Below, one piece after another: positions 2,856 to 56,560 of a stretch of 64,000 bases of DNA. The translations under genes and the position numbers were made by a program. The first letter of the stretch is position 1, and every line of letters starts with the position of its first letter. This stretch comes from Escherichia phage phiEC1: sequence record KY608965.1; one strand, 5' to 3'. The notes under the pieces are model-generated. The model saw nothing but the letters and a program-made list of their open reading frames with translations. It did not search any database and was not told the origin of the DNA.

Positions 2856-3146
2856 TTAAAGTTTCAACAAAATTCACCAAATCATTCAGACAAGCATCAA
2901 CCTGATTTTCATAAAAGTCTTCGTTATCATTTACTGCATGATAAGCTACATCATTCAAATCTGAATCGGCTTCACGTAAGTCACTGATAAGGTCCATCAA
3001 TTTATTAGCTTGTTCACGGGTCATTTTACCATACTCGTTTCAATAAGATTCACTATGCCGTTTACCATGTTATAAGTAAACATCGGATAATTGTATTGTA
3101 CTACAACATAAGCGATAAGCAAAAGTTTCATTTTGTTCTCCGTTCG

Positions 3147-8372: not shown

Positions 8373-8681
8373 TCAATTAGAAAATAAATTTATCCAAGTT
8401 TTTTCTTTAATCAAAAATGGGTCGGAATTAAACGCCATTAAACTTTGAGTGATTAATCCCTTAAATGGCCCATCAATAAATTCCATTTTGAAATGTGGAA
8501 TACTAGTCATCAACCGCGCATTAGGAGCAGTACAAAGAACCTGCTGCCCTGAGAACGGACCTTTAGTCAAACGATATCGTTTAGGTTTAAAATGGTAAAT
8601 CTCGTAATTTTCTACAAGAGCCCTTTTATTGCATACTGGGCTGTTATAACAATATTCAAAAACTTCAATAGTGGTCATCAT
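8373..8681 (-). CDS. Hypothetical protein
   Basis: 102 aa ORF. Confidence 0.4.
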   Translation of the reverse strand: MMTTIEVFEYCYNSPVCNKRALVENYEIYHFKPKRYRLTKGPFSGQQVLCTAPNARLMTSIPHFKMEFIDGPFKGLITQSLMAFNSDPFLIKEKTWINLFSN

Positions 8682-9217
8682 TGCATTCCAATCACAAAAA
8701 ATTGAGGACGAGCGTTACCGCCGATGCAATATTTGCTTTTGCAGCAGGGCTGTACTGTTTTAATGTGGACATTGTAAATCTTATCCATATCAGGAGCTTT
8801 AATAGGCTCGTCAATTATATACAGAATACGAGAAAGCGTTAATCCACGGAATTTAGAACCTTCATTGCCAATAAAACTACGAACAGAATCGGTAAATAAA
8901 CGGAATCGAATATCGTCGCTAGAATAACGCGAAAATTCTTTTTCAATGTTGCCAGCAGAAATTTTAGCATAAGCTGAAGTATTAGAAAGAACAATAACTG
9001 TTCCACCATCATACAGCCAATTAGCAGCAAAGTTAGTCACAGCAATTGATTTACCTGATTGTCGGCCGCCATCTAAACGAAGTGTACAGTACTGCTTGAG
9101 TACGTCTTCAAATGGTGGGACATAACCGTTCTTACAAATTTCTTCTACTCTAGCATCAGAATGGTGTGTAAAAGCATTCATCAGGGATAGATAAGGTCCA
9201 GTTAAAAATGTTCTCAT
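8678..9217 (-). CDS. Hypothetical protein with Walker-A-like motif
   Basis: 179 aa; GGRQSGKS. Confidence 0.45.
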   Translation of the reverse strand: MRTFLTGPYLSLMNAFTHHSDARVEEICKNGYVPPFEDVLKQYCTLRLDGGRQSGKSIAVTNFAANWLYDGGTVIVLSNTSAYAKISAGNIEKEFSRYSSDDIRFRLFTDSVRSFIGNEGSKFRGLTLSRILYIIDEPIKAPDMDKIYNVHIKTVQPCCKSKYCIGGNARPQFFVIGMQ

Positions 9218-9394
9218 TTAGTTTCTCTTAAGGTTGGGCCATTCCATGGCGCATGAATTGTCCGTTTCTGTATTTACCCATTACCGCACTTGGGCTCGAC
9301 CTTATTACAGGTTGGCGGGAATCCCTCATAGAATAATGAGGTCCAGGTTGTTCCCATTTTATTTAAATGTAAATAGGCCTATACTTAGGCCTTA

Positions 9395-9973
9395 TTAATT
9401 ACCACGGGCTGCATTAGCAACGGCGTAAGCGTACTGAACATTAGCGTCTTTAAACGTACCTTTAGAGGTATCTATTTCTGCCTTAAAGCCGCCTTTAGCC
9501 ATAACATCAGCAAATTCTTTACGGAAAGCCATTGCGTCAAGACCTTTCCATGATGATTTATGCTTGGCAAATTCAAGACCTGCGAAGTTGACAGCTTTAG
9601 CCAATTTATTATCAATGACCCATTTACCTGCTTTAGGCACAAACTTCGGGCCTTTTTGTTTAGAGAACAGTTTTAAATTCCAGCGACGAAGGTCACTGTC
9701 GGCTTTAACAAAAGCTGCGTCTAAGTTACTAGCAACAACATCTTCAATATGAGCAAATTTAAGACCATCAACTTCAATATTTAGATCGTTACGCCAGCGA
9801 AGTCCTTCCCAAGCGAAGGCTTTAAAGTCGGAAGCCTTTGTAGCTAAGTACCGTTCAATAGGAGCAGTTTTAGGGTCAAAGCCGTTTCCGCCACGATAAT
9901 TCCACTCGTCCTTATTAATGCCTTGAGCTTTTCCTGCAAAGGCCTCGGCGATAAATTCTTTATATGTTTTCAT
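9395..9973 (-). CDS. ipIII: Internal protein III-like capsid-targeted protein
   Basis: 192 aa; N-terminal capsid targeting sequence MKTYKEFIAEA; size and position fit T4 IPIII. Confidence 0.65.
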   Translation of the reverse strand: MKTYKEFIAEAFAGKAQGINKDEWNYRGGNGFDPKTAPIERYLATKASDFKAFAWEGLRWRNDLNIEVDGLKFAHIEDVVASNLDAAFVKADSDLRRWNLKLFSKQKGPKFVPKAGKWVIDNKLAKAVNFAGLEFAKHKSSWKGLDAMAFRKEFADVMAKGGFKAEIDTSKGTFKDANVQYAYAVANAARGN

Positions 9974-9999
9974 TTTTGTTCCTATTCTTTTAATTTATG

Positions 10000-10314
10000 T
10001 TATTCTTTAGGGAAGTTTTTAGAGTATGCGTCATAAAGTTTATTACCGATGCGACGGAAGACTTTAGCTGCAAAACGGTTTTCAGGGTTTTTAATCATGA
10101 TTTGCATCATGTAAGTTCCTGCATCCGAAAGAGCTTCTTCATAGTACCCATTAATTTCTTTAAGAGTCCTACGTTTACCACCAGGACCATCAACAGTAAT
10201 TTTCCATTTACCTGTAGAAGTGCGGCTCGGTGGCTCAACTTGTTCAATCCAAATATAACCACCTTCAACGCGTTGGTTGGCGGATTCTGCAATAAATTCT
10301 TTATACGTTTTCAT
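10000..10314 (-). CDS. ipII: Internal protein II-like capsid-targeted protein
   Basis: 104 aa; N-terminal MKTYKEFIAES leader. Confidence 0.55.
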   Translation of the reverse strand: MKTYKEFIAESANQRVEGGYIWIEQVEPPSRTSTGKWKITVDGPGGKRRTLKEINGYYEEALSDAGTYMMQIMIKNPENRFAAKVFRRIGNKLYDAYSKNFPKE

Positions 10315-10334
10315 TTTTGTTTCCTTGTTTGTTT

Positions 10335-10374
10335 TGATAGAGTAATTATACCATATTAATACTTAAGCGTAAAC
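10335..10374 (-). promoter_or_regulatory. Early promoter cassette (PeSL-like), degenerate
   Basis: gatagagtaattataccatatt with gtaaac at 10369-10374, upstream of the ipII-like start. Confidence 0.4.
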
Positions 10375-10377
10375 AAT

Positions 10378-10494
10378 TTAAGCTTTACCGCCAGAAATAA
10401 TTCCGAAGTTGTTAAAATCGTATCCAATATCGTCAACATCTACTTTAGGACCTTTGGCATCTGCTTCAATGATAAATTCTTGATACATTTTCAT
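10378..10494 (-). CDS. Small capsid-targeted-like protein (38 aa)
   Basis: Manual translation MKMYQEFIIEADAKGPKVDVDDIGYDFNNFGIISGGKA; CTS-like leader; AAGGA Shine-Dalgarno; below the 60 aa cutoff of the ORF track. Confidence 0.4.
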   Translation of the reverse strand: MKMYQEFIIEADAKGPKVDVDDIGYDFNNFGIISGGKA

Positions 10495-10500
10495 TTTTCC

Positions 10501-10914
10501 TTAGTAAATTGATTTACCATAGTATTTGTACCAAGTCGGACGTTGAGCAATTTTTTCATCTAAGCGTGCTTGACTTATCGCAATGGACGCTTCGGACGGG
10601 ACATAATTATTACGAAATTCGGCAGGAATGTCGGAAATATCCTGGACAGTCGTGTCCTTGATTTTGAAACCACGTTTCAAGCATTCAGCTATTAGCTCGA
10701 TTTGACGTAAACGTAAAAATTCGAGTTTGTCATAAAAGAATGTTACGTGACCTGTGCCTAAGATAAATGTTGGAGAGATTTTAAAATCCTTTACACGTTT
10801 ACCATTTTGAACATGTTTACGGACTGCACCAAATACGCGTGGTAATTCACGATACTCAGCCATAAGATGTTGGTCGGTCAGTTCAGAAACAAGTGTTAAA
10901 TTGATACGAGTCAT
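10501..10914 (-). CDS. denV: Endonuclease V (pyrimidine dimer DNA glycosylase)
   Basis: [12 protein letters not shown]...[10 protein letters not shown]...TWYKYYGK, matches remembered T4 DenV; start taken at MTRINL rather than the upstream MEEIM. Confidence 0.9.
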
Positions 10915-10930
10915 AATTTCCTCCAAGTAG

Positions 10931-10971
10931 TTGATAGATGTATAGTATCAAAACCCTTGGAGGAAGTAAAC
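10931..10971 (-). promoter_or_regulatory. Early promoter cassette (PeSL-like)
   Basis: gatagatgtatagtatcaaaac with gtaaac at 10966-10971, upstream of denV. Confidence 0.45.
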
Positions 10972-10972
10972 A

Positions 10973-11254
10973 CTATTTTTCTGAAGCGCCTGAAATATAT
11001 TTTTCAAGACGTTGTTTCATCAGCGAGCCGTTCTTAGCGATTTCTTCCGGTTTATCGCACATACGCAACAGTGCTTCAAGCTTAGCGATATCGCTGGTAC
11101 GTTCAAATTTGCGAGTATCTATCTTACTGGCAAGTTCAGAAATACGTGCTAATAGACTTTCAGCTTCAACCAAAGCTGCACCTAGCTTAGTTGCAAATGT
11201 GTCAGTAGCTTCGTTAAGAATAGATTCTGATAAAAATTCACTATATGTTTTCAT
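10973..11254 (-). CDS. Capsid-targeted internal-protein-like protein, no T4 counterpart recognised
   Basis: 93 aa from ATG 11254: [11 protein letters not shown] leader; start abuts the stop of lysozyme e. Confidence 0.5.
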
Positions 11255-11739
11255 ATATACGCTTTCCAAGTTCCTGTTTTAAATGTTGAGATTACGCGTT
11301 TTGCGCGATTAGGTGTCTGACGATACCATTTAGATTGGGCGAGATTTACTGCCGCTTCATCCCAACGTTTCTGTTGAAGCATACGAAGAGAATTAGTAAA
11401 ACCGGCGACGCCTGATACGCCCATTTGGAAGACCATATTGACTAATGCACATCGACGAACCGCGTCTAAAGAATCATACACCGGTTTAAGTTTAGCATTA
11501 CCCAAGATTCCGCGAACGGCTTTATCGACGTCTTCATTAAATAGCTTTTCAGCCTCATCAAGGGTAATTGTACCGTTGCATTTACGACCGATCATTCTGT
11601 CAAGTTCAGCTTTAGCTACGGCTAAAGACGGGTTCTTTGTTACTAAATGGCCTATGCCAATCGTCCAAAAGCCTTCAGTGTCTTTATATAAAGTCAGTCT
11701 AAGACCTTCATCATTACGAAGCATTTCAAATATATTCAT
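11251..11739 (-). CDS. e: Lysozyme (endolysin)
   Basis: [28 protein letters not shown] with Glu-Asp-Thr catalytic arrangement; clear homolog of remembered T4 lysozyme; start taken at MNIFEML. Confidence 0.95.
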
Positions 11740-11773
11740 AATACCTCCCACGTTTATAGGAGGTATTTATTAC

Positions 11774-12232
11774 TTATAGGAGGGTAGTGAGCACCTTATA
11801 TAATGATTTGCCCATTACATATTCCCATTGAGAAGGTTTAATTAAAGCGAATGCATCAAATTCAGGAATTTGTCGTCCGTCTGGGAATGTATGATAGGAA
11901 TTACAAACACTGTTTCTGAATTGCTCGTGCTCTACAGGGATGGTATATAGGAACAGATGAATATTCTTATTGTCTGAGTAATGATGTTCACCTAGGTCTT
12001 TCAGGAAGGCAGGGTCATATTGTGTAAACCCAGTTTCTTCTTCGCATTCACGAATAGCGGCTTCAATAGGAGATTCGCCAGGTTCGACACGGCCTTTAGG
12101 AATATCCCACCGATGAGCTAATGCACCTTTAGAACGAGAACCAGTTACACGACCCATGAATAATTCTTTATCTTCGGTAAGGAAAATAATACCGGCTGAT
12201 AGTTCTTTCACTTTATTTTTCTTACTCATCAT
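11774..12232 (-). CDS. nudE: Nudix hydrolase
   Basis: 152 aa; Nudix box GRVEPGESPIEAAIRECEEETG; downstream of e as T4 nudE. Confidence 0.75.
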   Translation of the reverse strand: MMSKKNKVKELSAGIIFLTEDKELFMGRVTGSRSKGALAHRWDIPKGRVEPGESPIEAAIRECEEETGFTQYDPAFLKDLGEHHYSDNKNIHLFLYTIPVEHEQFRNSVCNSYHTFPDGRQIPEFDAFALIKPSQWEYVMGKSLYKVLTTLL

Positions 12233-21181: not shown

Positions 21182-21558
21182 GAATGTTCCACCATTTCAA
21201 AGGTATGAGCATCAACAATATGATACCAGTCAAAATTTTCTTCTGCGTTTTTATAAATTTCGCGAAGAGCCTCAACAGTTTTTCCTGTAGCAACAAGGTC
21301 GTCAATACCACCAAGAGGATAACAGTCATAACCAGCAAACAGAAGGAAATTAATAGTTTCTGTAGGTTCTGGATACAGAACTCCGTTATCGTCTACCACT
21401 TCAAAGAAAGTGTAAGAAGGAGTACAAGTTTTAATCCAGGCCCATGCTTGAGCTGCTGAATCAAACGGATTACGGAATAAACGACAATCCGGGTCTTTAG
21501 AAGGATTTGCTTCAAAATCAGCATATACATGATATTTCATTTTACTCACCTTTTGCAA
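21178..21558 (-). CDS. Hypothetical protein
   Basis: 126 aa ORF, overlapping start/stop with neighbours. Confidence 0.45.
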   Translation of the reverse strand: MQKVSKMKYHVYADFEANPSKDPDCRLFRNPFDSAAQAWAWIKTCTPSYTFFEVVDDNGVLYPEPTETINFLLFAGYDCYPLGGIDDLVATGKTVEALREIYKNAEENFDWYHIVDAHTFEMVEHS

Positions 21559-21748
21559 TTTTATCCATAACGATAGCGATTAAGCCGATTAGAAATGCTA
21601 CTACCAATGAGATAGAATTTTCTGTTGTTGTCAGTAGTCCACAAATGAATCCTACAAACATCGAAAAACTAAAAGCCATTGAAGCAATTACTACAGCAAC
21701 ATTACGAATCAGTTCAGCGCGTTTCATTTTATTTCTCCATTTACTCAT
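21542..21748 (-). CDS. Small membrane protein
   Basis: 68 aa; two hydrophobic segments. Confidence 0.4.
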   Translation of the reverse strand: MSKWRNKMKRAELIRNVAVVIASMAFSFSMFVGFICGLLTTTENSISLVVAFLIGLIAIVMDKIAKGE

Positions 21749-21797: not shown

Positions 21798-22085
21798 TTA
21801 TAGAAGAGTTTTTGCAATAATTTTAAGCTGAGCTACAGAAATATGCTTAGCTTTAAACAGTGCAGTCTCTTCAGCCGGAGAGATAACAATAGTAGCGCCA
21901 TCTTTCTTAGCAGACCATCCATCCCCTAAGTAAACAGTACCTTTTACTTCTTCACCATCAACCAGACTAATCATTGGTTTACCCTCACGTCCTTTATTTG
22001 TTTTAATAACTTCAGAAGTAAGGGATGCTTCGGTCAGAGTAGAAACGTTAGCAACAGGTGATATAAATTCTTTATAGGTTTTCAT
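21798..22085 (-). CDS. ipI: Internal protein I-like capsid-targeted protein
   Basis: 95 aa; MKTYKEFI leader; adjacent to 57B as T4 ipI. Confidence 0.65.
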   Translation of the reverse strand: MKTYKEFISPVANVSTLTEASLTSEVIKTNKGREGKPMISLVDGEEVKGTVYLGDGWSAKKDGATIVISPAEETALFKAKHISVAQLKIIAKTLL

Positions 22086-22162: not shown

Positions 22163-22848
<686 letters not shown>

Positions 22849-49514: not shown

Positions 49515-49542
49515 TAACTATAATTCCCATTTGGAGAATACA

Positions 49543-51114
49543 ATGAAATTTAATATCTTAAGTTTGTTTGCTCCATGGGCAAAAATGGACGAACGTGATT
49601 ACAAAGACCAAGAAAAAGAAAATTTAGAATCTATCACCACACCAAAATTAGACGATGGCGCTAAAGAATACGAAGTATCTGAAAATGAAGCACAGCAAAC
49701 ATATAATGCTATGTTTCAGAGAATGTTCGGTAGTCAAGAACCAGGGCTCAAATCAACCCGTGAATTAATCGATACGTATCGAAATTTGATGACGAACTAT
49801 GAAGTGGATAACGCGGTCTCTGAAATAGTTTCTGATGCTATCGTATATGAAGATGATACAGAAGTCGTTTCTATAAATTTAGACAACACAAAATTTAGTC
49901 CAAATATAAAATCAATGATGTTGGATGAATTTAACGAAGTGTTGAATCATTTATCTTTCCAACGTAAAGGTTCAGACCATTTTAGGCGTTGGTATGTAGA
50001 TTCTCGAATTTTCTTCCATAAAATTATTGACCCTAAACGCCCTAAAGAAGGTATTAAAGAGCTTCGTCGTTTAGACCCACGCCAAGTTCAATATGTCCGT
50101 GAAGTTATTACAACCACTGAAGCCGGTGTTAAAATAGTCAAGGGTTATAAAGAATATTTCATTTATGACACATCACACGAATCTTATGCTTGTGATGGTC
50201 GCATATATGAAGCTGGCACAAAAATAAAAATCCCTAAAGCCGCGATTGTTTATGCCCATTCTGGTTTAGTTGATTGTTGTGGTAAAAATATCATCGGTTA
50301 TTTGCATCGGGCTATTAAGCCGGCGAACCAATTAAAACTTCTTGAAGATGCCGTCGTAATTTATCGTATTACTCGTGCTCCCGATCGTCGTGTATGGTAC
50401 GTTGATACAGGTAATATGCCTTCAAGAAAAGCAGCAGAACATATGCAACATGTTATGAATACGATGAAAAACCGTATTGCATATGATGCTACTACAGGCA
50501 AGATTAAAAACCAGCAGCATATTATGTCGATGACCGAAGATTATTGGTTACAACGACGTGATGGTAAAGCAGTAACAGAAGTTGACACATTACCAGGTGC
50601 AGATAATACTGGAAATATGGAAGATGTACGTTGGTTCCGTAATGCGCTTTATATGGCTTTACGTATTCCTATTACCCGTATTCCAAGTGACCAAGGTGGT
50701 ATACAGTTTGATGCTGGTACTTCTATTACACGAGATGAATTATCATTTGGTAAATTTATTCGTGAGCTGCAACATAAATTTGAAGAGATATTCCTAGACC
50801 CGCTTAAAACTAATTTAATTCTTAAAGGAATTATTACAGAAGATGAGTGGAATGATGAAATAAATAATATTAAGATAAAATTTCATCGGGATAGTTATTT
50901 CTCGGAATTAAAGGATGCTGAGATTCTGGAGCGTCGAATTAATATGCTTCAGATGGCCGAACCATTTATTGGTAAATATATTTCTCACAGAACAGCTATG
51001 AAAGATATTCTTCAGATGTCTGACGAGGAAATTGAACAAGAGGCTAAGCAAATTGAAGAAGAGTCGAAAGAGGCTCGTTTCCAAGACCCCGACCAAGAAC
51101 AAGAGGATTTTTAA
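49543..51114 (+). CDS. 20: Portal vertex protein gp20
   Basis: Start at ATG 49543 ([18 protein letters not shown]) rather than the TTG at 49531; about 523 aa. Confidence 0.9.
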
Positions 51115-51350
51115 TGGACGATTTAATTCAAGCTATTAAATCAAACGACCTCGTTGCTACTCGAAAGTTTTTTGAAAGTGCAATGGCAGAAAAAGCGGTT
51201 CGTTTGATTGAAGCGCGTAAAGCAGAAATCGCTTCTCAATTTTTGATTGAAGGCGAAGAACCTGAAGAAGAAAAGAAAGCTAAAGCTTCGGAAGACGACG
51301 CTGATGAAGGCGATGACGACGAAGACGAAGATGATGAGGACGATGAATAA
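51114..51350 (+). CDS. 67: Prohead core protein gp67
   Basis: 78 aa with acidic C-terminus [11 protein letters not shown]; position 20-67-68-21 as in T4. Confidence 0.7.
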
Positions 51351-51775
51351 TGTATCTTATCCCTGAATCTTATGAATTGGTACTCGAAAATGTCGAAGCA
51401 CTTATTCCTGAAGCACAGGGCCGAATCGATGCATTGTCTTCTGCTCTCGATATTGACGATATAAATACTATTATCGAGAACATGCTTGAAACTGAAACGG
51501 ATTTAGCTGTTGCAATGGCTTCCATTATTAATGAAGAACAGTTAAATGAGTTTATCGTTAAACATGTTTCTTCTCGTGGTGAAGTCACCCGCACTAAAGA
51601 CCGTAAAACTCGTGAACGTAACGCGTTCCAAACCACTGGTCTTTCTAAAGCAAAACGTAGACAAATCGCTCGTAAGGTCGTTAAAGCTAAAAAAGCTAAC
51701 CCTTCAGGCCAAGTTAAAGGCTTGCGTAAGCGTAAAAAGGCTCTTAAACGTCGTAAAGCATTAGGATTAAGCTAA
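51350..51775 (+). CDS. 68: Prohead core protein gp68
   Basis: 141 aa, same length as T4 gp68; basic C-terminus. Confidence 0.7.
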
Positions 51776-52422
51776 TGAATAAACCCGAGTTACTTATTGA
51801 AACTTGGGGTCAACCCGGTGAGATTATTGATGGCGTTCCAATGTTGGAATCTCATGATGGAAAAGATTCTGGCTTAAAACCAGGGCTTTATATAGAAGGT
51901 ATTTTTCTTCAGGCAGAGGTTGTTAACCGAAATAAACGTTTATATCCTAAACGCGTTTTGGAAAAAGCAGTAAGTGACTATATTAAAGAACAAGTCGCAA
52001 CCAAACAAGCCCTTGGAGAATTAAACCATCCACCTCGTGCAAATGTTGACCCTATGCAAGCCGCTATCATTATTGAAGATATGTGGTGGAAAGGAAACGA
52101 TGTATATGGACGTGCTAGAATTATTGAAGGCGACCATGGTCCCGGCGATAAATTAGCTGCTAATATACGAGCTGGTTGGATTCCGGGTGTTTCCTCTCGT
52201 GGTCTTGGTTCTTTAACCGACACCAATAAAGGGTACCGTATCGTGAACGAAGGATTTAAATTAACCGTCGGCGTAGATGCCGTATGGGGACCTTCTGCTC
52301 CAGATGCTTGGGTTACTCCTAAACAAATATCAGAATCAGAATCAGAAAATTCGGTGGAAATCACCAAAAACAGTGCTGACGAAGCATTTAAAGCTCTCGC
52401 AGAGAGTTTAAAAGCATTATAA
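51775..52422 (+). CDS. 21: Prohead core protease gp21
   Basis: 215 aa; colinear with T4 gene 21. Confidence 0.85.
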   Translation: MNKPELLIETWGQPGEIIDGVPMLESHDGKDSGLKPGLYIEGIFLQAEVVNRNKRLYPKRVLEKAVSDYIKEQVATKQALGELNHPPRANVDPMQAAIIIEDMWWKGNDVYGRARIIEGDHGPGDKLAANIRAGWIPGVSSRGLGSLTDTNKGYRIVNEGFKLTVGVDAVWGPSAPDAWVTPKQISESESENSVEITKNSADEAFKALAESLKAL

Positions 52423-52425
52423 ATA
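52418..52425 (+). promoter_or_regulatory. T4-type late promoter TATAAATA for gene 22
   Basis: TATAAATA overlapping the gene 21 stop, 31 nt upstream of gene 22. Confidence 0.5.
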
Positions 52426-52455
52426 ATAATGTAATCTAAACCACAGGACACTAAA

Positions 52456-53268
52456 ATGATCAAAGAACAACTTTTGAAAGAAGCTCAGAACATCGAGACT
52501 TCAGTTGCTCTTAATAGTGTTTTCGAATCAGTAGAACTGTCTCCGGACGTTAAAGCTAATTTCAGCACTGTATTCGAAGCCACCGTTAAGCAGGAAGCAG
52601 TCAAACTGGCTGAATCTCATATCAAAGCCATCGCCGAAAAGGCTGAAGAAGAAGTTGAAAAGGCTAAAGAAGATGCTGAAGAGAAAGCTGATAAAAAATT
52701 GGCTGAACAAGCTTCTAAATTCCTGGACCATCTTGCAAAAGAATGGCTCGCAGAAAACCAAATCGCAGTTGATAAAGGCATTAAAGCTGATTTGTTCGAA
52801 TCCATGCTTGGTGGTCTGAAAGAACTGTTTGTTGAACATAACGTTGTTGTTCCAGAAGAATCTGTAGATGTTGTAGCAGAAATGGAAGAAGAGCTGGCCG
52901 AACATAAAGAAGAAACCGCTCGTTTGTTCGAAGAAGTTACCAAACGTGATGCATATATCAATTACGTTCAGCGTGAAACCGCTATTAATGAAAGCGTAAA
53001 AGACCTGACTGAATCTCAGAAAGAAAAAGTTATTGGCCTGGTTGAAGGTATGGATTATTCTGACGCATTTGGTACTAAGTTAACTGCTATTGTAGAAATG
53101 GTTAAAGGTTCTACTAAAGAAGAAGCCGATATTACCGAAAGTATAAATACAGTTGACAATGACGCTGCCGGTCTTAATTTTGTTGCCGAAGCAGTTGACA
53201 CTACCACAACTCAGGTAGAACAGAATTCTAATGTAAGTTTATATGCGAAAGTCGCATCTCGTTTCTAA
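52456..53268 (+). CDS. 22: Prohead core scaffold protein gp22
   Basis: 270 aa, Glu/Lys/Ala-rich helical scaffold-like. Confidence 0.8.
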   Translation: MIKEQLLKEAQNIETSVALNSVFESVELSPDVKANFSTVFEATVKQEAVKLAESHIKAIAEKAEEEVEKAKEDAEEKADKKLAEQASKFLDHLAKEWLAENQIAVDKGIKADLFESMLGGLKELFVEHNVVVPEESVDVVAEMEEELAEHKEETARLFEEVTKRDAYINYVQRETAINESVKDLTESQKEKVIGLVEGMDYSDAFGTKLTAIVEMVKGSTKEEADITESINTVDNDAAGLNFVAEAVDTTTTQVEQNSNVSLYAKVASRF

Positions 53269-53285
53269 TTTAAAGGTTAACACAA

Positions 53286-54854
53286 ATGACTACTATCAAA
53301 ACTAAAGCTCAGCTCGTAGACAAATGGAAAGAACTGCTGGAAGGTGAAGGCCTGCCGGAAATCGCTAATAGCAAGCAGGCTATTATCGCTAAAATCTTCG
53401 AAAACCAGGAAAAAGATTTCGAAGTATCCCCTGAATATAAAGACGAGAAAATCGCTCAGGCATTTGGTTCTTTCTTGACCGAAGCTGAAATTGGTGGTGA
53501 CCACGGTTATAATGCTCAGAATATTGCAGCAGGTCAAACCTCTGGTGCAGTAACCCAAATTGGGCCGGCAGTTATGGGTATGGTTCGTCGTGCTATTCCT
53601 AATCTGATCGCTTTTGATATTTGTGGTGTTCAGCCTATGAACAGCCCGACCGGTCAGGTATTTGCTCTCCGTGCAGTATATGGTAAAGACCCTATCGCTG
53701 CTGGCGCTAAAGAAGCTTTCCATCCGATGTATGCCCCAGACGCGATGTTCTCTGGTCAGGGTGCTGCTAAGAAATTCCCAGCTCTGGCTGCTGACACTAC
53801 TACTGTTGTAGGTGATATCTATACTCACTTCTTCCAAGAAACTGGTACTGTATATCTGCAAGCTTCTGCTATCGTAACACTTGATTCTGGTGCAACTGAT
53901 GCAGCTAAATTAGATGCAGAAGTTAAGAAACAAATGGAAGCTGGTGCACTGGTAGAAATCGCTGAAGGTATGGCTACTTCTATCGCTGAACTCCAGGAAG
54001 GTTTCAACGGTTCTACCGATAACCCATGGAATGAAATGGGCTTCCGTATCGATAAACAAGTTATCGAAGCTAAATCTCGCCAGCTGAAAGCTGCTTACTC
54101 TATCGAATTAGCACAAGACCTCCGTGCAGTACACGGTATGGATGCTGATGCTGAACTGAGCGGTATTCTGGCTACAGAAATTATGCTAGAAATCAACCGT
54201 GAAGTTGTTGATTGGATTAACTACTCTGCACAGGTTGGTAAATCTGGTATGACCCTGACTCCGGGTTCTAAAGCTGGCGTATTTGACTTCCAGGACCCGA
54301 TTGATATCCGTGGTGCTCGTTGGGCCGGTGAAAGCTTTAAATCTCTGTTGTTCCAGATTGATAAAGAAGCAGTTGAAATTGCTCGTCAAACCGGCCGTGG
54401 TGAAGGTAACTTCATTATCGCTTCCCGTAACGTAGTTAACGTACTGGCTTCAGTTGATACTGGTATTTCTTACGCTGCACAGGGCCTGGCTTCTGGTTTT
54501 AATACCGACACTACTAAATCTGTGTTTGCCGGTGTACTTGGTGGTAAATACCGCGTATACATCGACCAGTATGCTAAACAGGATTACTTCACCGTTGGTT
54601 ACAAAGGCGCTAACGAAATGGATGCAGGTATTTACTATGCTCCTTACGTTGCACTTACCCCACTGCGTGGTTCCGATCCTAAGAACTTCCAGCCGGTAAT
54701 GGGCTTTAAAACTCGTTACGGTATCGGTGTTAACCCGTTTGCTGAAAGTTCCCTGCAGGCTCCAGGTGCTCGCATCCAGTCCGGTATGCCGTCTATCCTG
54801 AACAGCCTTGGTAAGAACGCTTACTTCCGCCGTGTATATGTAAAAGGCATCTAA
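53286..54854 (+). CDS. 23: Major capsid protein gp23
   Basis: 522 aa; colinear with T4 gene 23; strongly biased codon usage typical of a highly expressed gene. Confidence 0.95.
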   Translation: MTTIKTKAQLVDKWKELLEGEGLPEIANSKQAIIAKIFENQEKDFEVSPEYKDEKIAQAFGSFLTEAEIGGDHGYNAQNIAAGQTSGAVTQIGPAVMGMVRRAIPNLIAFDICGVQPMNSPTGQVFALRAVYGKDPIAAGAKEAFHPMYAPDAMFSGQGAAKKFPALAADTTTVVGDIYTHFFQETGTVYLQASAIVTLDSGATDAAKLDAEVKKQMEAGALVEIAEGMATSIAELQEGFNGSTDNPWNEMGFRIDKQVIEAKSRQLKAAYSIELAQDLRAVHGMDADAELSGILATEIMLEINREVVDWINYSAQVGKSGMTLTPGSKAGVFDFQDPIDIRGARWAGESFKSLLFQIDKEAVEIARQTGRGEGNFIIASRNVVNVLASVDTGISYAAQGLASGFNTDTTKSVFAGVLGGKYRVYIDQYAKQDYFTVGYKGANEMDAGIYYAPYVALTPLRGSDPKNFQPVMGFKTRYGIGVNPFAESSLQAPGARIQSGMPSILNSLGKNAYFRRVYVKGI

Positions 54855-54878
54855 TCTTAATTGATTAAATCTTATTTT

Positions 54879-54910
54879 GGGAGACTTCGGTCTCCCATTT
54901 TTGGTTTTAT
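54879..54910 (+). terminator. Rho-independent terminator after gene 23
   Basis: GGGAGAC-TTCG-GTCTCCC hairpin followed by ATTTTTGGTTTT. Confidence 0.7.
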
Positions 54911-55176
54911 TTCTGTGCAATTTCGATGTAAGTTTTCAAAATATTTTGCCAATTAGGCATACCTTCTTGGACATATGCCGGAGAACCGTCTTTGTTTTTG
55001 AATGATGCAAGTTTATCAGTGGCCCAATAACCTTTAGCTCGAGCTTCAGAATCAACTTTCATCCATACTTTGTTGAAGGCATTACCATTAACTTTTGCAC
55101 CATATTTTTCTACTAACTTAACTGCTTCAGCTTCCAGAACTTTTAAAGTATCTCGTAAGAAACGTGCTTTAGTCAT
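54907..55176 (-). CDS. Small hypothetical protein, antisense-oriented in the 23-24 intergenic region
   Basis: 89 aa; occupies the position where T4 carries segD but shows no endonuclease motif; own early-type promoter cassette upstream. Confidence 0.45.
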   Translation of the reverse strand: MTKARFLRDTLKVLEAEAVKLVEKYGAKVNGNAFNKVWMKVDSEARAKGYWATDKLASFKNKDGSPAYVQEGMPNWQNILKTYIEIAQK

Positions 55177-55194
55177 TTTGTTTACTCCTCTGTA

Positions 55195-55236
55195 GTTGAT
55201 AAGTCTATAGTATCACATACCAAATACGTTGTAAAC
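55195..55236 (-). promoter_or_regulatory. Early promoter/leader cassette, duplicate of 18555-18600
   Basis: gtttactcctctgtagttgataagtctatagtatcac with gtaaac at 55231-55236. Confidence 0.45.
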
Positions 55237-55242
55237 AATCTT

Positions 55243-55250
55243 TATAAATA
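55243..55250 (+). promoter_or_regulatory. T4-type late promoter TATAAATA for gene 24
   Basis: TATAAATA 27 nt upstream of the gene 24 ATG. Confidence 0.55.
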
Positions 55251-55276
55251 ATCTATATCACATAAGGAAAAATGCA

Positions 55277-56560
55277 ATGAGTAAAATCCAAAAATTATTG
55301 CGTGAATCTACAACGTCTACTAGCAACTCAATCGGTCGCCCAAATCTCGTTGCTTTGACTCGCGCTACGACTAAATTAATATATTCTGACATTGTGGCAA
55401 CACAAAGAACTAATCAACCTGTTGCTGCTTTTTATGGTATTAAATATCTTAACCCAGACAACGAATTAACATTTAAAACTGGTGCTACTTATGCAGGCGA
55501 AGCTGGATATGTAGACCGAGAAAAAATTACTGAGCTCACAGAAGAATCAAAAGTCACACTAAATAAAGGTGATTTTTTCAAATATAATAATATCGTCTAT
55601 AAAGTGTTAGAAGATACGCCGTTTGCAGATATTCAGGAAAGTGATCTAGAATTAGCTCTTCAGATTGCGGTCGTTCATTTAAAGGTACGGCTATTTTCAG
55701 ATGCAGCGGTAACAAGCAAATTTGAAAGCTCTGGTAGCGAAATTTCTGATGCAAGATTCCAGATTAATAAATGGCAAACTTCAGTCAAATCTCGTAAACT
55801 TAAAACCGGCCTCACGGTTGAATTAGCGCAAGATTTAGAAGCGAATGGATTTGATGCCCCTAACTTCTTAGAAGATTTGCTTGCTACTGAAATGGCTGAT
55901 GAAATTAATAAAGATATTCTTCAGTCTTTAATTACTGTATCTAAACGTTATAAAGTTACTGGAATTACTGACACCGGATTTATTGACTTGAGTTATGCAT
56001 CTGCTCCGGAAGCAGGTCGTTCGTTATATCGAATGGTGTGTGAAATGGTTTCGCATATCCAAAAAGAGTCAACTTATACTGCAACGTTTTGCGTAGCTTC
56101 AGCTCGTGCAGCTGCTATTCTTGCTGCTTCTGGTTGGTTAAAACATAAGCCGGAAGATGATAAGTATCTTTCACAAAATGCTTATGGATTCTTGGCAAAT
56201 GGATTACCTCTTTACTGCGATACCAACAGTCCGTTAGATTATGTTATTGTGGGTGTTGTAGAAAATATCGGCGAAAAAGAGATTGTAGGGTCCATCTTTT
56301 ATGCTCCATACACTGAAGGAATGGATTTAGACGACCCGGAACATGTCGGTGCATTTAAAGTTGTAGTTGATCCGGAAAGCTTACAACCGTCTATAGGTTT
56401 ATTGGTTAGATATGCTTTATCAGCAAATCCTTACACAGTAGCAAAAGATGAAAAAGAAGCGAGAGTAATTGATGGCGGGGACATGGATAAAATGGCAGGA
56501 CGTTCAGACTTGTCTGTTTTACTCGGTGTTAAATTGCCTAAAATTATTATAGATGAATAA
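55277..56560 (+). CDS. 24: Capsid vertex protein gp24
   Basis: 427 aa, same length as T4 gp24. Confidence 0.9.
   Translation: MSKIQKLLRESTTSTSNSIGRPNLVALTRATTKLIYSDIVATQRTNQPVAAFYGIKYLNPDNELTFKTGATYAGEAGYVDREKITELTEESKVTLNKGDFFKYNNIVYKVLEDTPFADIQESDLELALQIAVVHLKVRLFSDAAVTSKFESSGSEISDARFQINKWQTSVKSRKLKTGLTVELAQDLEANGFDAPNFLEDLLATEMADEINKDILQSLITVSKRYKVTGITDTGFIDLSYASAPEAGRSLYRMVCEMVSHIQKESTYTATFCVASARAAAILAASGWLKHKPEDDKYLSQNAYGFLANGLPLYCDTNSPLDYVIVGVVENIGEKEIVGSIFYAPYTEGMDLDDPEHVGAFKVVVDPESLQPSIGLLVRYALSANPYTVAKDEKEARVIDGGDMDKMAGRSDLSVLLGVKLPKIIIDE

What the first reader, a model, noticed from the sequence alone, without database searches (positions are those of the whole stretch)
9395..11254. 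Expanded cassette of capsid-targeted internal proteins flanking denV
Four minus-strand ORFs here start with the T4 capsid targeting sequence pattern: MKTYKEFIAEA (192 aa), MKTYKEFIAES (104 aa), MKMYQEFIIEA (38 aa, not in the ORF track) and [11 protein letters not shown] (93 aa, abutting the e stop). A fifth, MKTYKEFI (ipI-like), lies at 21798-22085. In T4 such leaders load proteins into the head for injection, and IPI is a known anti-restriction factor. The 93 aa and 38 aa members and the interleaving with denV differ from the T4 arrangement as I remember it, so they may be uncharacterised injected anti-defence proteins.
Basis: partly seen in the sequence, partly recalled or inferred. Interest (0 to 1): 0.65.

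Follow-up and report, generated by a model that had tools for sequence, protein, structure and literature searches.

The report
Standard RB69-type internal head protein genes
These are the usual internal head protein genes of an RB69-like T-even phage, whose products are loaded into the capsid by a short leader and injected with the DNA; all five belong to families already named or annotated in sequenced relatives, so the finding is real but ordinary.

Summary
Four minus-strand ORFs at 9395-11254, and a fifth at 21798-22085, start with the T4 capsid targeting sequence (CTS). About 8e-5 such motifs are expected per window by chance.

The window is a Mosigvirus (RB69-like) genome. The gene order e / 93-aa Ip / denV / small Ip / 104-aa Ip / last Ip / vs.8 is the RB69 order, known since that genome was sequenced.

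- 192 aa: IpIII, 93% identical to T4.
- 104 aa: Ip10. It shares only the leader with T4 IpII.
- 93 aa: RB69 ORF127c type, annotated "internal head protein" and 47-51% identical to Ip5 of T2 and PP01.
- 38 aa: an in-frame 144-bp deletion allele of the 86-aa RB69 ORF125c, found in at least eight other phages.
- 95 aa: IpI (Pfam IPI_T4).

The prohead protease gp21 and scaffold gp22 lie in the same window.

Published work shows that T4 Ip1, Ip2 and Ip3 each block a different GmrSD type IV restriction enzyme. Ip4-10 tested negative against further GmrSD variants. An anti-defence role for Ip10, the ORF127c type and ORF125c is therefore plausible but unproven.

One modest addition: comparison with PhAPEC2 places an ip10 gain/loss crossover inside the CTS-coding sequence.

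The parts
9395..9973 (-). ipIII (192 aa). The CTS is MKTYKEFIAE, with predicted gp21 cleavage before A11. The mature form is 182 aa, pI 9.6.
   Evidence: 93% identity to T4 IpIII over the full length. PHROG 5341 'internal virion protein', E 2e-117. Mature size and pI.
9375..9392 (.). GC-rich hairpin followed by a T-run, a terminator-like site just downstream of ipIII that closes the ip block.
   Evidence: Pattern scan. This is a consensus match only.
10000..10314 (-). ip10 (104 aa). The CTS is MKTYKEFIAE, with predicted cleavage before S11. The mature form is 94 aa, pI 9.6.
   Evidence: 96% identical to the gene annotated ip10 in PP01 and 72-73% to ip10 of VR25/VR20. 100% identical copies occur in Bas46, IME340 and others. 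The JS09 record calls its copy 'Ip10, similar to CAA84455 [phage Pol]'. It shares only residues 1-21 with T4 IpII. PHROG 3966.
10345..10373 (-). T4-early-type promoter-like site, TTTACG-17-TATAAT with an extended TG, upstream of ip10.
   Evidence: Best promoter match in the region, 10 of 12. Nearly invariant in window, PhAPEC2, RB69 and JS09. Close to the PST/T4 PeSL promoter consensus TTTACW-N17-TAYWAT in PMC4122927. Function not shown.
10378..10494 (-). 38-aa deletion allele of RB69 ORF125c. The CTS MKMYQEFIIE is intact, with predicted cleavage before A11. The predicted mature peptide is 28 aa, pI 4.3.
   Evidence: Alignment with p000v and Bas46 shows a 144-bp in-frame deletion between copies of GTCCTAAA. 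The junction 44-mer occurs in 10 records from 8 phages. PhAPEC2 annotates it 'similar to RB69ORF125c'. PHROG 35655, E 2.4e-30.
10501..10914 (-). denV (endonuclease V). It is interleaved between ip genes and is not an internal protein.
   Evidence: Pfam Pyr_excise E 3.3e-14 and PHROG 1183 E 1.5e-62. Same position in RB69.
10973..11254 (-). RB69 ORF127c-type, Ip5-related internal head protein (93 aa). The CTS is [10 protein letters not shown], and a second, family-conserved L-N-E site ends at residue 15. The start overlaps the e stop as ATGA.
   Evidence: 91% identical to RB69p127 and 48-51% to Ip5 of Bas37 and PP01. PHROG 3499 'internal head protein', E 2e-46. 232 records hold copies at 95% identity or more. 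The AF2 model is all-helical, pLDDT 72.6.
11251..11739 (-). e (T4-type lysozyme), upstream neighbour and anchor of the locus.
   Evidence: Pfam Phage_lysozyme. Annotated as e or endolysin in relatives.
21798..22085 (-). ipI (95 aa). The 19-residue propeptide ends in L-T-E, and the mature form is 76 aa.
   Evidence: Pfam IPI_T4 E 2.6e-49 over residues 20-95, matching the whole 76-position profile. PHROG 4363. The gene lies next to the ORF at 22163-22618; the 57B assignment is by position only.
51775..52422 (+). Prohead protease gp21, the enzyme that removes the CTS.
   Evidence: Pfam Peptidase_S77 E 3e-107.
52456..53268 (+). Scaffolding core protein gp22, with which the internal proteins assemble in the prohead core. 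gp67 and gp68 lie at 51114-51775.
   Evidence: Pfam T4_CASP E 1.4e-89 and GP67 E 2.4e-19. The gp68 assignment is by position only.

Best explanation
The five ORFs are the internal-protein (ip) gene set of an RB69-like T-even phage (genus Mosigvirus). They are ipIII, ip10, a deletion allele of RB69 ORF125c, an Ip5-related ORF127c-type gene, and ipI at its usual second locus.

Mechanism, as shown for T4 and inferred here. The N-terminal 10 residues (Y4 and F7 for targeting, L/I8 and E10 for processing) take each protein into the scaffolding core of the prohead. The gp21 protease cuts after L/I-x-E, and the mature protein stays in the head and enters the cell with the DNA.

By orthology, IpI and IpIII should inhibit particular GmrSD-family type IV restriction enzymes. 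Ip10, the ORF127c type and ORF125c have no known target. Most likely they are narrow-specificity inhibitors of other first-line defences that act on modified DNA. The 38-aa allele has probably lost whatever the 86-aa protein does.

The array is remodelled by recombination in the conserved CTS-coding and upstream sequence, and by microhomology deletion.
For: - Motif and chance.
- All four CTS determinants (Y4, F7, L/I8, E10) are present in the four clustered ORFs. IpI has its L-T-E site at residue 19, giving the 76-aa mature form that the Pfam profile covers. The residue roles come from PMC9026906.
- gp21, gp22, gp67, the portal and gp23/24 are encoded in the same window.
- Orthology: IpIII is 93% identical to T4, and IpI matches IPI_T4 at E 2.6e-49.
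- Family assignment and annotation in relatives.
- Function of T4 Ip1, Ip2 and Ip3 against distinct GmrSD enzymes: PMC12373910. IpIII is needed on ECOR17, and a variant lacking the CTS still rescues when expressed in the host: PMC9391042. Another CTS protein, Bas37_0260, inhibits McrBC: bioRxiv 10.1101/2025.11.20.689424.
- Cassette turnover: PhAPEC2 lacks ip10. Its ipIII carries the ip10-type upstream region and the ip10-type codon 3 (ACG), then switches to ipIII sequence. This places the crossover in the shared TATAAAGAATTTAT of the CTS.
- The last slot holds ipIII here, ORF123c in RB69 and an ORF of the same length (330 nt) in UGJNEcP1, and ipII plus a denV fragment in JS09.
Against: - I found no virion proteomics for these Mosigvirus proteins, so packaging and cleavage are inferred.
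- Ip4-10 showed no reproducible inhibition of five further GmrSD variants.
- No exact T4 late promoter TATAAATA lies in 9150-11850, so late expression, which packaging needs, is not shown.
- The ORF127c type (mature pI about 6.3) and ORF125c (pI 4.3-4.9) are not basic like T4 IpII and IpIII.
- The 38-aa allele may be inert.
Confidence: 0.8

Rival explanations
1. The uncharacterised internal proteins mainly serve head assembly or DNA packing, through charge neutralisation or core architecture, rather than counter-defence.
For: T4 IpIII mutants show slower head assembly and a burst of about 40%. The IPs are present at about 360 copies per head, and their lysines contact DNA (PMC9026906 and PMC3012670). 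Ip10 and IpIII here are basic, pI 9.6.
Against: All three T4 IPs now have specific type IV restriction targets. The genes come and go between very close relatives, which does not fit a structural requirement. The 93-aa and ORF125c proteins are near-neutral or acidic.
Confidence: 0.12
2. The 38-aa ORF is a non-functional remnant. It may still be translated, and even packaged, but its 28-aa mature peptide does nothing.
For: It arose by an in-frame 144-bp deletion between 8-bp repeats, which removes 48 of the 76 mature residues. The full-length form is far more common, seen in about 200 of 217 records, against 10 records with the junction.
Against: The allele keeps its frame, Shine-Dalgarno sequence and an intact CTS. 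It persists in at least eight phages with different neighbouring cassettes.
Confidence: 0.6
3. The 93-aa ORF127c/Ip5-type protein is a core component that gp21 cuts into short peptides, like gp22, gp67 and gp68, and is not delivered intact.
For: L/I-x-E motifs near residues 15, 30 and 40 are conserved in the window protein, PP01 and Bas37 Ip5, and the divergent cluster representatives P0009, P0010 and P0012.
Against: The motifs lie in a long predicted helix and may be conserved for structural reasons. Transposon insertions in Bas37 ip5 are about 4-fold depleted on UPEC CFT073 relative to K-12 (supplementary table), which suggests a host-specific role.
Confidence: 0.08

Closest known systems
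RB69 e-denV-vs.8 locus (RB69p127, denV, RB69p125, ORF124c, ORF123c)
   Same: Same gene order, with denV interleaved between CTS genes. The 93-aa protein is 91% identical to RB69p127, and Ip10 is 96% identical.
   Different: The last slot holds ipIII instead of ORF123c. ORF125c carries the 144-bp deletion. RB69's ip10 has a 1-nt insertion relative to the window.
[quoted passage not shown]
   Same: The CTS leader, ipI and ipIII orthologues, the two loci (next to e, and in the T4 ipI position near 57B), and gp21/gp22 machinery.
   Different: There is no ipII. Three additional, unrelated mature domains are present, and denV is moved inside the array.
Ip5 and Ip10 of T-even phages (Repoila et al. 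1994 nomenclature; ip5 in T2/PP01/AR1, ip10 in PP01/VR25/SP18)
   Same: The 104-aa ORF is Ip10. The 93-aa ORF is a homologue of Ip5 at 47-51% identity over 84 aa.
   Different: The Ip5-type gene here sits beside e rather than at the ipI locus, and it is a distinct subfamily.
Bas37_0260, CTS-bearing McrBC inhibitor (HIDEN-SEQ preprint)
   Same: A CTS leader on a small variable protein in an ip locus.
   Different: No similarity to any window protein beyond the leader.

Membership tests
T-even internal proteins (CTS-bearing, capsid-packaged) | N-terminal CTS with Y4 and F7 (targeting) and L/I8 and E10 (gp21 processing) | tested here: met
   All four clustered ORFs have Y4, F7, I/L8 and E10. IpI has Y4, F7 and an L-T-E site at residue 19. 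Residue roles come from PMC9026906.
T-even internal proteins (CTS-bearing, capsid-packaged) | The phage encodes the gp21 prohead protease and the gp22 scaffolding core | tested here: met
   Peptidase_S77 at 51775-52422 and T4_CASP at 52456-53268.
T-even internal proteins (CTS-bearing, capsid-packaged) | Located in one of the two known ip loci, and variable between close relatives | tested here: met
   The ORFs lie in the e-vs.8 interval, with ipI at a second locus in the position it has in T4. Presence and absence differ among PhAPEC2, UGJNEcP1, JS09, RB69 and p000v.
T-even internal proteins (CTS-bearing, capsid-packaged) | Protein physically present in virions in leader-cleaved form and injected | not testable with these tools
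   No proteomic report was found in the held literature.
IpI (Pfam PF11634, GmrSD-CT596 inhibitor) | Match to the IPI_T4 profile over the mature 76 residues | tested here: met
   E 2.6e-49, 165.5 bits against a cut-off of 25, residues 20-95 on profile positions 1-76. Inhibitory activity was not tested.
IpIII (inhibitor of the ECOR17 GmrS1/GmrSD2 system) | Full-length sequence orthology to T4 IpIII | tested here: met
   93% identity over 192 aa. Activity was not tested.
IpII (inhibitor of ECOR21 GmrSD/BrxU) | Homology of the mature domain to T4 IpII | tested here: not met
   The 104-aa ORF aligns with T4 IpII only over residues 1-21. No other window ORF matches IpII beyond the leader.
Ip10 | Full-length homology to proteins named Ip10 | tested here: met
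   96% to PP01 ip10 and 72-73% to VR25/VR20 ip10. P0007, 'Ip10 [Shigella phage SP18]', is 72% identical.
Ip5 | Full-length homology to proteins named Ip5 | tested here: inconclusive
   47-51% identity over 84 of 93 residues, E 1e-23 to 1e-25. This shows clear homology, but the RB69 ORF127c type is a separate subfamily at a different locus.

The most novel reading that the evidence does not exclude
Ip10, the ORF127c-type protein and full-length ORF125c could be injected inhibitors of defence systems not yet linked to any Ip. One example would be type IV nucleases that recognise the arabinosylated 5-hydroxycytosine DNA reported for RB69, Bas46 and Bas47 (PMC13326640). In that case the Mosigvirus array would encode new anti-defence specificities matched to a different DNA modification than that of T4.
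Probability: 0.35. Interest if true: 0.55.

Novelty: already known. Interest (0 to 1): 0.2.

Why it matters
The concept is well established: T-even phages carry a variable palette of leader-tagged, injected proteins that counter host restriction. These particular genes are already catalogued. The open question is what Ip10, the ORF127c/Ip5 type and ORF125c target. That would extend the map of Ip against type IV restriction to phages with arabinosylated DNA, and it bears on host-range prediction for therapeutic T-even phages. The sequence-level evidence that cassettes are exchanged through the CTS-coding sequence is a small, concrete illustration of a shuffling mechanism proposed in 1994.

Tried and rejected
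- 104-aa ORF as IpII: rejected, because only the leader aligns.
- A window Ip as a homologue of the McrBC inhibitor Bas37_0260: rejected.
- The 177-bp gap at 9218-9394 as a denV remnant, as in JS09: rejected. It has no similarity to denV and instead carries the 5' end of T4-type vs.8.
- Structured RNA in the locus: only two sub-threshold Rfam matches, to eukaryotic families.
- Pfam domains for the four clustered Ips: none, apart from a sub-threshold CsgH match for Ip10.
- Structure route. The Ip10 model is unusable (pLDDT 46.8). The 93-aa model is helical (pLDDT 72.6, pTM 0.36) and gave no Foldseek match in the PDB.
- Deep homology. Word-indexed searches gave 5 hits for the 93-aa protein and 3 for Ip10. 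An exhaustive HMMER search with the 93-aa protein gave only 4 cluster representatives, so that family appears confined to T-even phages.
- Exact late promoter TATAAATA: none in 9150-11850.
- Literature search for virion proteomics of RB69-type Ips: nothing found.
- Repoila et al. 1994 (PMC395341) is not held. Its content is cited only through later papers.

Full report
**Observation.** The region was read on both strands. Four minus-strand ORFs start with a T4-type capsid targeting sequence (CTS).
- 9395-9973: 192 aa, MKTYKEFIAEA.
- 10000-10314: 104 aa, MKTYKEFIAES.
- 10378-10494: 38 aa, MKMYQEFIIEA.
- 10973-11254: 93 aa, [11 protein letters not shown].

The ATG of the 93-aa ORF overlaps the TGA of the lysozyme gene e as ATGA. 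A fifth ORF at 21798-22085 (95 aa) starts MKTYKEFISPV. A six-frame scan for MK.Y.EF[ILVM].E finds exactly these four. None appeared in 100 shuffles, and the analytic expectation is 7.7e-5. The looser MK.Y.EF adds only the fifth ORF.

**What genome this is.** The locus matches Mosigvirus (RB69-like) phages at 96-97% identity: p000v, Bas46/ChristianSchoenbein, phi25-307 and PhAPEC2. Over 24 kb the best records are 95-96% identical, so the window is a Mosigvirus that is not itself in the collection. The head-morphogenesis genes are in the same window.
- Portal gp20: 49531-51114.
- gp67: 51114-51350.
- Prohead protease gp21 (Peptidase_S77, E 3e-107): 51775-52422.
- Scaffold gp22 (T4_CASP, E 1.4e-89): 52456-53268.
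- gp23 and gp24 follow.

**Identity of each ORF.**
- 192 aa. It is IpIII, 93% identical to T4 IpIII over its whole length.
- 104 aa. It aligns with T4 IpII only over the first 21 residues. It is 96% identical to the gene annotated ip10 in PP01 and 72-73% to ip10 of VR25/VR20. 100% identical copies occur in Bas46, IME340 and many other records. The JS09 record calls its copy "Ip10; similar to CAA84455 Ip10 [Enterobacteria phage Pol]". Homologues at 52-57% identity lie beside the lysozyme gene in Enterobacter, Cronobacter and Kosakonia phages.
- 93 aa. It is 91% identical to RB69p127, which RefSeq annotates as "internal head protein". It matches PHROG 3499 at E 2e-46. It is 48-51% identical to Ip5 of Bas37 and PP01, and one search gives 47-51% against Ip5-type genes more widely, T2 included. 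232 records hold copies at 95% identity or more.
- 38 aa. It is an in-frame 144-bp deletion allele of the 86-aa RB69 ORF125c, also annotated "internal head protein". The deletion lies between copies of GTCCTAAA. A junction-specific 44-mer finds the same allele in 10 records from 8 phages: PhAPEC2, JS09, TU01, pEK20, UGJNEcP1/2, 172859UKE1 and MRostami-2023e. PhAPEC2 annotates it as similar to RB69ORF125c, and it has its own 38-position PHROG.
- 95 aa. It is IpI. Pfam IPI_T4 matches at E 2.6e-49 over residues 20-95, covering the full 76-position profile.

**Arrangement.**
- T4: e-ipIII-ipII-denV-vs.8.
- RB69: e-p127-denV-p125-ORF124c(ip10)-ORF123c-vs.8. ORF123c also starts MKTYQEFIAA.
- Window: the RB69 order, with ipIII in the last slot.

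The last slots vary among close relatives.
- PhAPEC2 has the deletion allele followed directly by ipIII, with no ip10.
- UGJNEcP1 has the deletion allele, ip10 and a 330-nt ORF of the same length as RB69 ORF123c. I did not compare their sequences.
- JS09 has the deletion allele, ip10, ipII and a denV fragment.
- p000v and Bas46 have full-length ORF125c, ip10 and ipIII.

All top matches to the window locus need at least two aligned pieces. This exact permutation therefore appears absent from the collection. That is a new shuffle of known parts, not a new part.

**How the array is remodelled.** The first 30 nt of the five genes are 20-26 of 30 identical pairwise. Exact runs of up to 15 nt are shared when the A-rich ribosome-binding region is included.

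In PhAPEC2, the gene that continues as ipIII carries the ip10-type upstream region, including the promoter-like TTTACG-17-TATAAT. It also carries the ip10-type codon 3 (ACG rather than ACA), and it switches to ipIII sequence by codon 8. The crossover that removed or added ip10 therefore lies within the shared TATAAAGAATTTAT of the CTS-coding sequence.

This agrees with the IP-palette shuffling attributed to Repoila et al. 1994 and with the promoter/stem-loop (PeSL) exchange model of Comeau et al. 2014 (PMC4122927). I could not read the 1994 paper.

**Mechanism.** The mechanism is established for T4. The first 10 residues of IpIII suffice for incorporation into the head. Residues 4 and 7 matter for targeting and residues 8 and 10 for processing. 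gp21 removes the leader, and about 360 copies of each IP per head are ejected with the DNA (PMC9026906; PMC3012670).

All four determinants are present in the four clustered ORFs, and the protease and scaffold are encoded in the window. Packaging and cleavage of Ip10, the 93-aa protein and the ORF125c allele are inferred, not shown. I found no virion proteomics for them.

In the ORF127c/Ip5 family the site conserved across members is L/I-x-E ending at residue 15. RB69p127 has a degenerate first site (MKTYMNFYQN) but keeps L-N-E at residue 15.

**Function.**
- T4 Ip1, Ip2 and Ip3 each inhibit a different GmrSD-family type IV restriction enzyme, with no cross-protection (PMC12373910).
- IpIII was first linked to growth on ECOR17, and a variant lacking the CTS still rescues when expressed in the host (PMC9391042).
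- Another CTS protein, Bas37_0260, inhibits McrBC (bioRxiv 10.1101/2025.11.20.689424). It has no similarity to any window protein beyond the leader.
- Ip4-10 were tested against five more active GmrSD variants with no reproducible hit.
- In the Bas37 transposon data, insertions in ip5 (bas37_0261) are depleted on UPEC CFT073 relative to K-12 (log2 fold change -2.09, adjusted p printed as 0). I infer the comparison from the order of sheets in the file. The neighbouring gene is also depleted (-1.56), so a polar effect is possible.
- RB69, Bas46 and Bas47 carry arabinosylated 5-hydroxycytosine rather than glucosyl-hmC (PMC13326640). The targets of Mosigvirus Ips may therefore differ from those of T4.

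**Physical properties and structure.** Predicted mature Ip10 and IpIII are basic, pI 9.6. The 93-aa protein is near-neutral (pI 6.3), and ORF125c is acidic (pI 4.9 for the full-length form, 4.3 for the 28-aa remnant).

AF2 predicts the 93-aa protein as all-helical (pLDDT 72.6, pTM 0.36), and it has no Foldseek match in the PDB. The Ip10 model is unusable (pLDDT 46.8). An exhaustive HMMER search with the 93-aa protein finds only four cluster representatives.

**Verdict.** The cassette is nevertheless the ordinary internal-protein array of RB69-like phages. Every member belongs to a named or annotated family, and the 38-aa ORF is a deletion remnant. An anti-defence role for the three members without a target is the field's standing hypothesis, not a new one. 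Novelty: already known. Interest is low.

Noticed in passing
window 9228-9329 and 8678-9217 (minus strand): vs.8 is split relative to T4. Residues 1-32 of T4 Vs.8 (219 aa) match 9329-9234 at 97% identity. Residues 38-219 match the 179-aa ORF in a different frame. The 177-bp 'gap' after ipIII is therefore the 5' part of T4-type vs.8, and it is conserved at 81-95% in JS09, PP01, UGJNEcP1 and RB69. PP01, PhAPEC2, p000v, JS09 and UGJNEcP1 annotate a 540-nt (179-aa) form, and RB69 a 504-nt form.
   Followed up: partly
L008 (JS09) 2847-2984: JS09 carries a 46-aa denV fragment downstream of an ipII gene, at the T4-type position, in addition to the full denV between the ip genes. This looks like a scar of an exchange with a T4-type ipII-denV segment.
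   Followed up: no
L004 (RB69) about 2380-2400, within ORF124c: RB69's ip10 has one extra G (GCAGCTGAAAG) relative to the window and JS09. This explains its shorter annotated ORF and the two-piece tblastn hit. It is either a frameshift or a sequencing error. Other RB69 ORFs are reported to be split by sequencing errors (PMC13326640).
   Followed up: no
L001 (p000v) and L002 (Bas46), start of ORF125c: In p000v the first ATG of ORF125c is ACG, so the CTS would start at the second Met (MYQEFTAEA). Bas46 has an extra G just upstream of the ORF125c start and is annotated with a longer ORF that overlaps denV. Start-site annotation of this gene is inconsistent across records.
   Followed up: no
window 10973-11254; P0009, P0010, P0012; PP01 and Bas37 Ip5: L/I-x-E motifs near residues 30 and 40 (LVE/LAE/IVE and ISE/IKE) are conserved across the divergent ORF127c/Ip5 family. 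They could be extra gp21 cleavage sites or simply helix positions.
   Followed up: partly
Bas37 (L009) 2864-3121, literature data: Bas37_0261 is annotated 'ipI' but is Ip5 by sequence. It shows a CFT073-specific fitness effect in the HIDEN-SEQ supplementary table that the preprint's main text, as far as I searched it, does not discuss.
   Followed up: partly
window 21542-21748 (minus strand): A 68-aa hydrophobic ORF lies immediately downstream of ipI. It resembles Bas37_0259 (MKR.ELIRNVA...), which occupies the same position near the ip genes there. Its function is unknown.
   Followed up: no
window 49531-56560 (plus strand): A complete T4-type head-morphogenesis block lies in the window: gp20, gp67, an unassigned 141-aa ORF in the gp68 position, gp21, gp22, gp23 and gp24.
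   Followed up: partly
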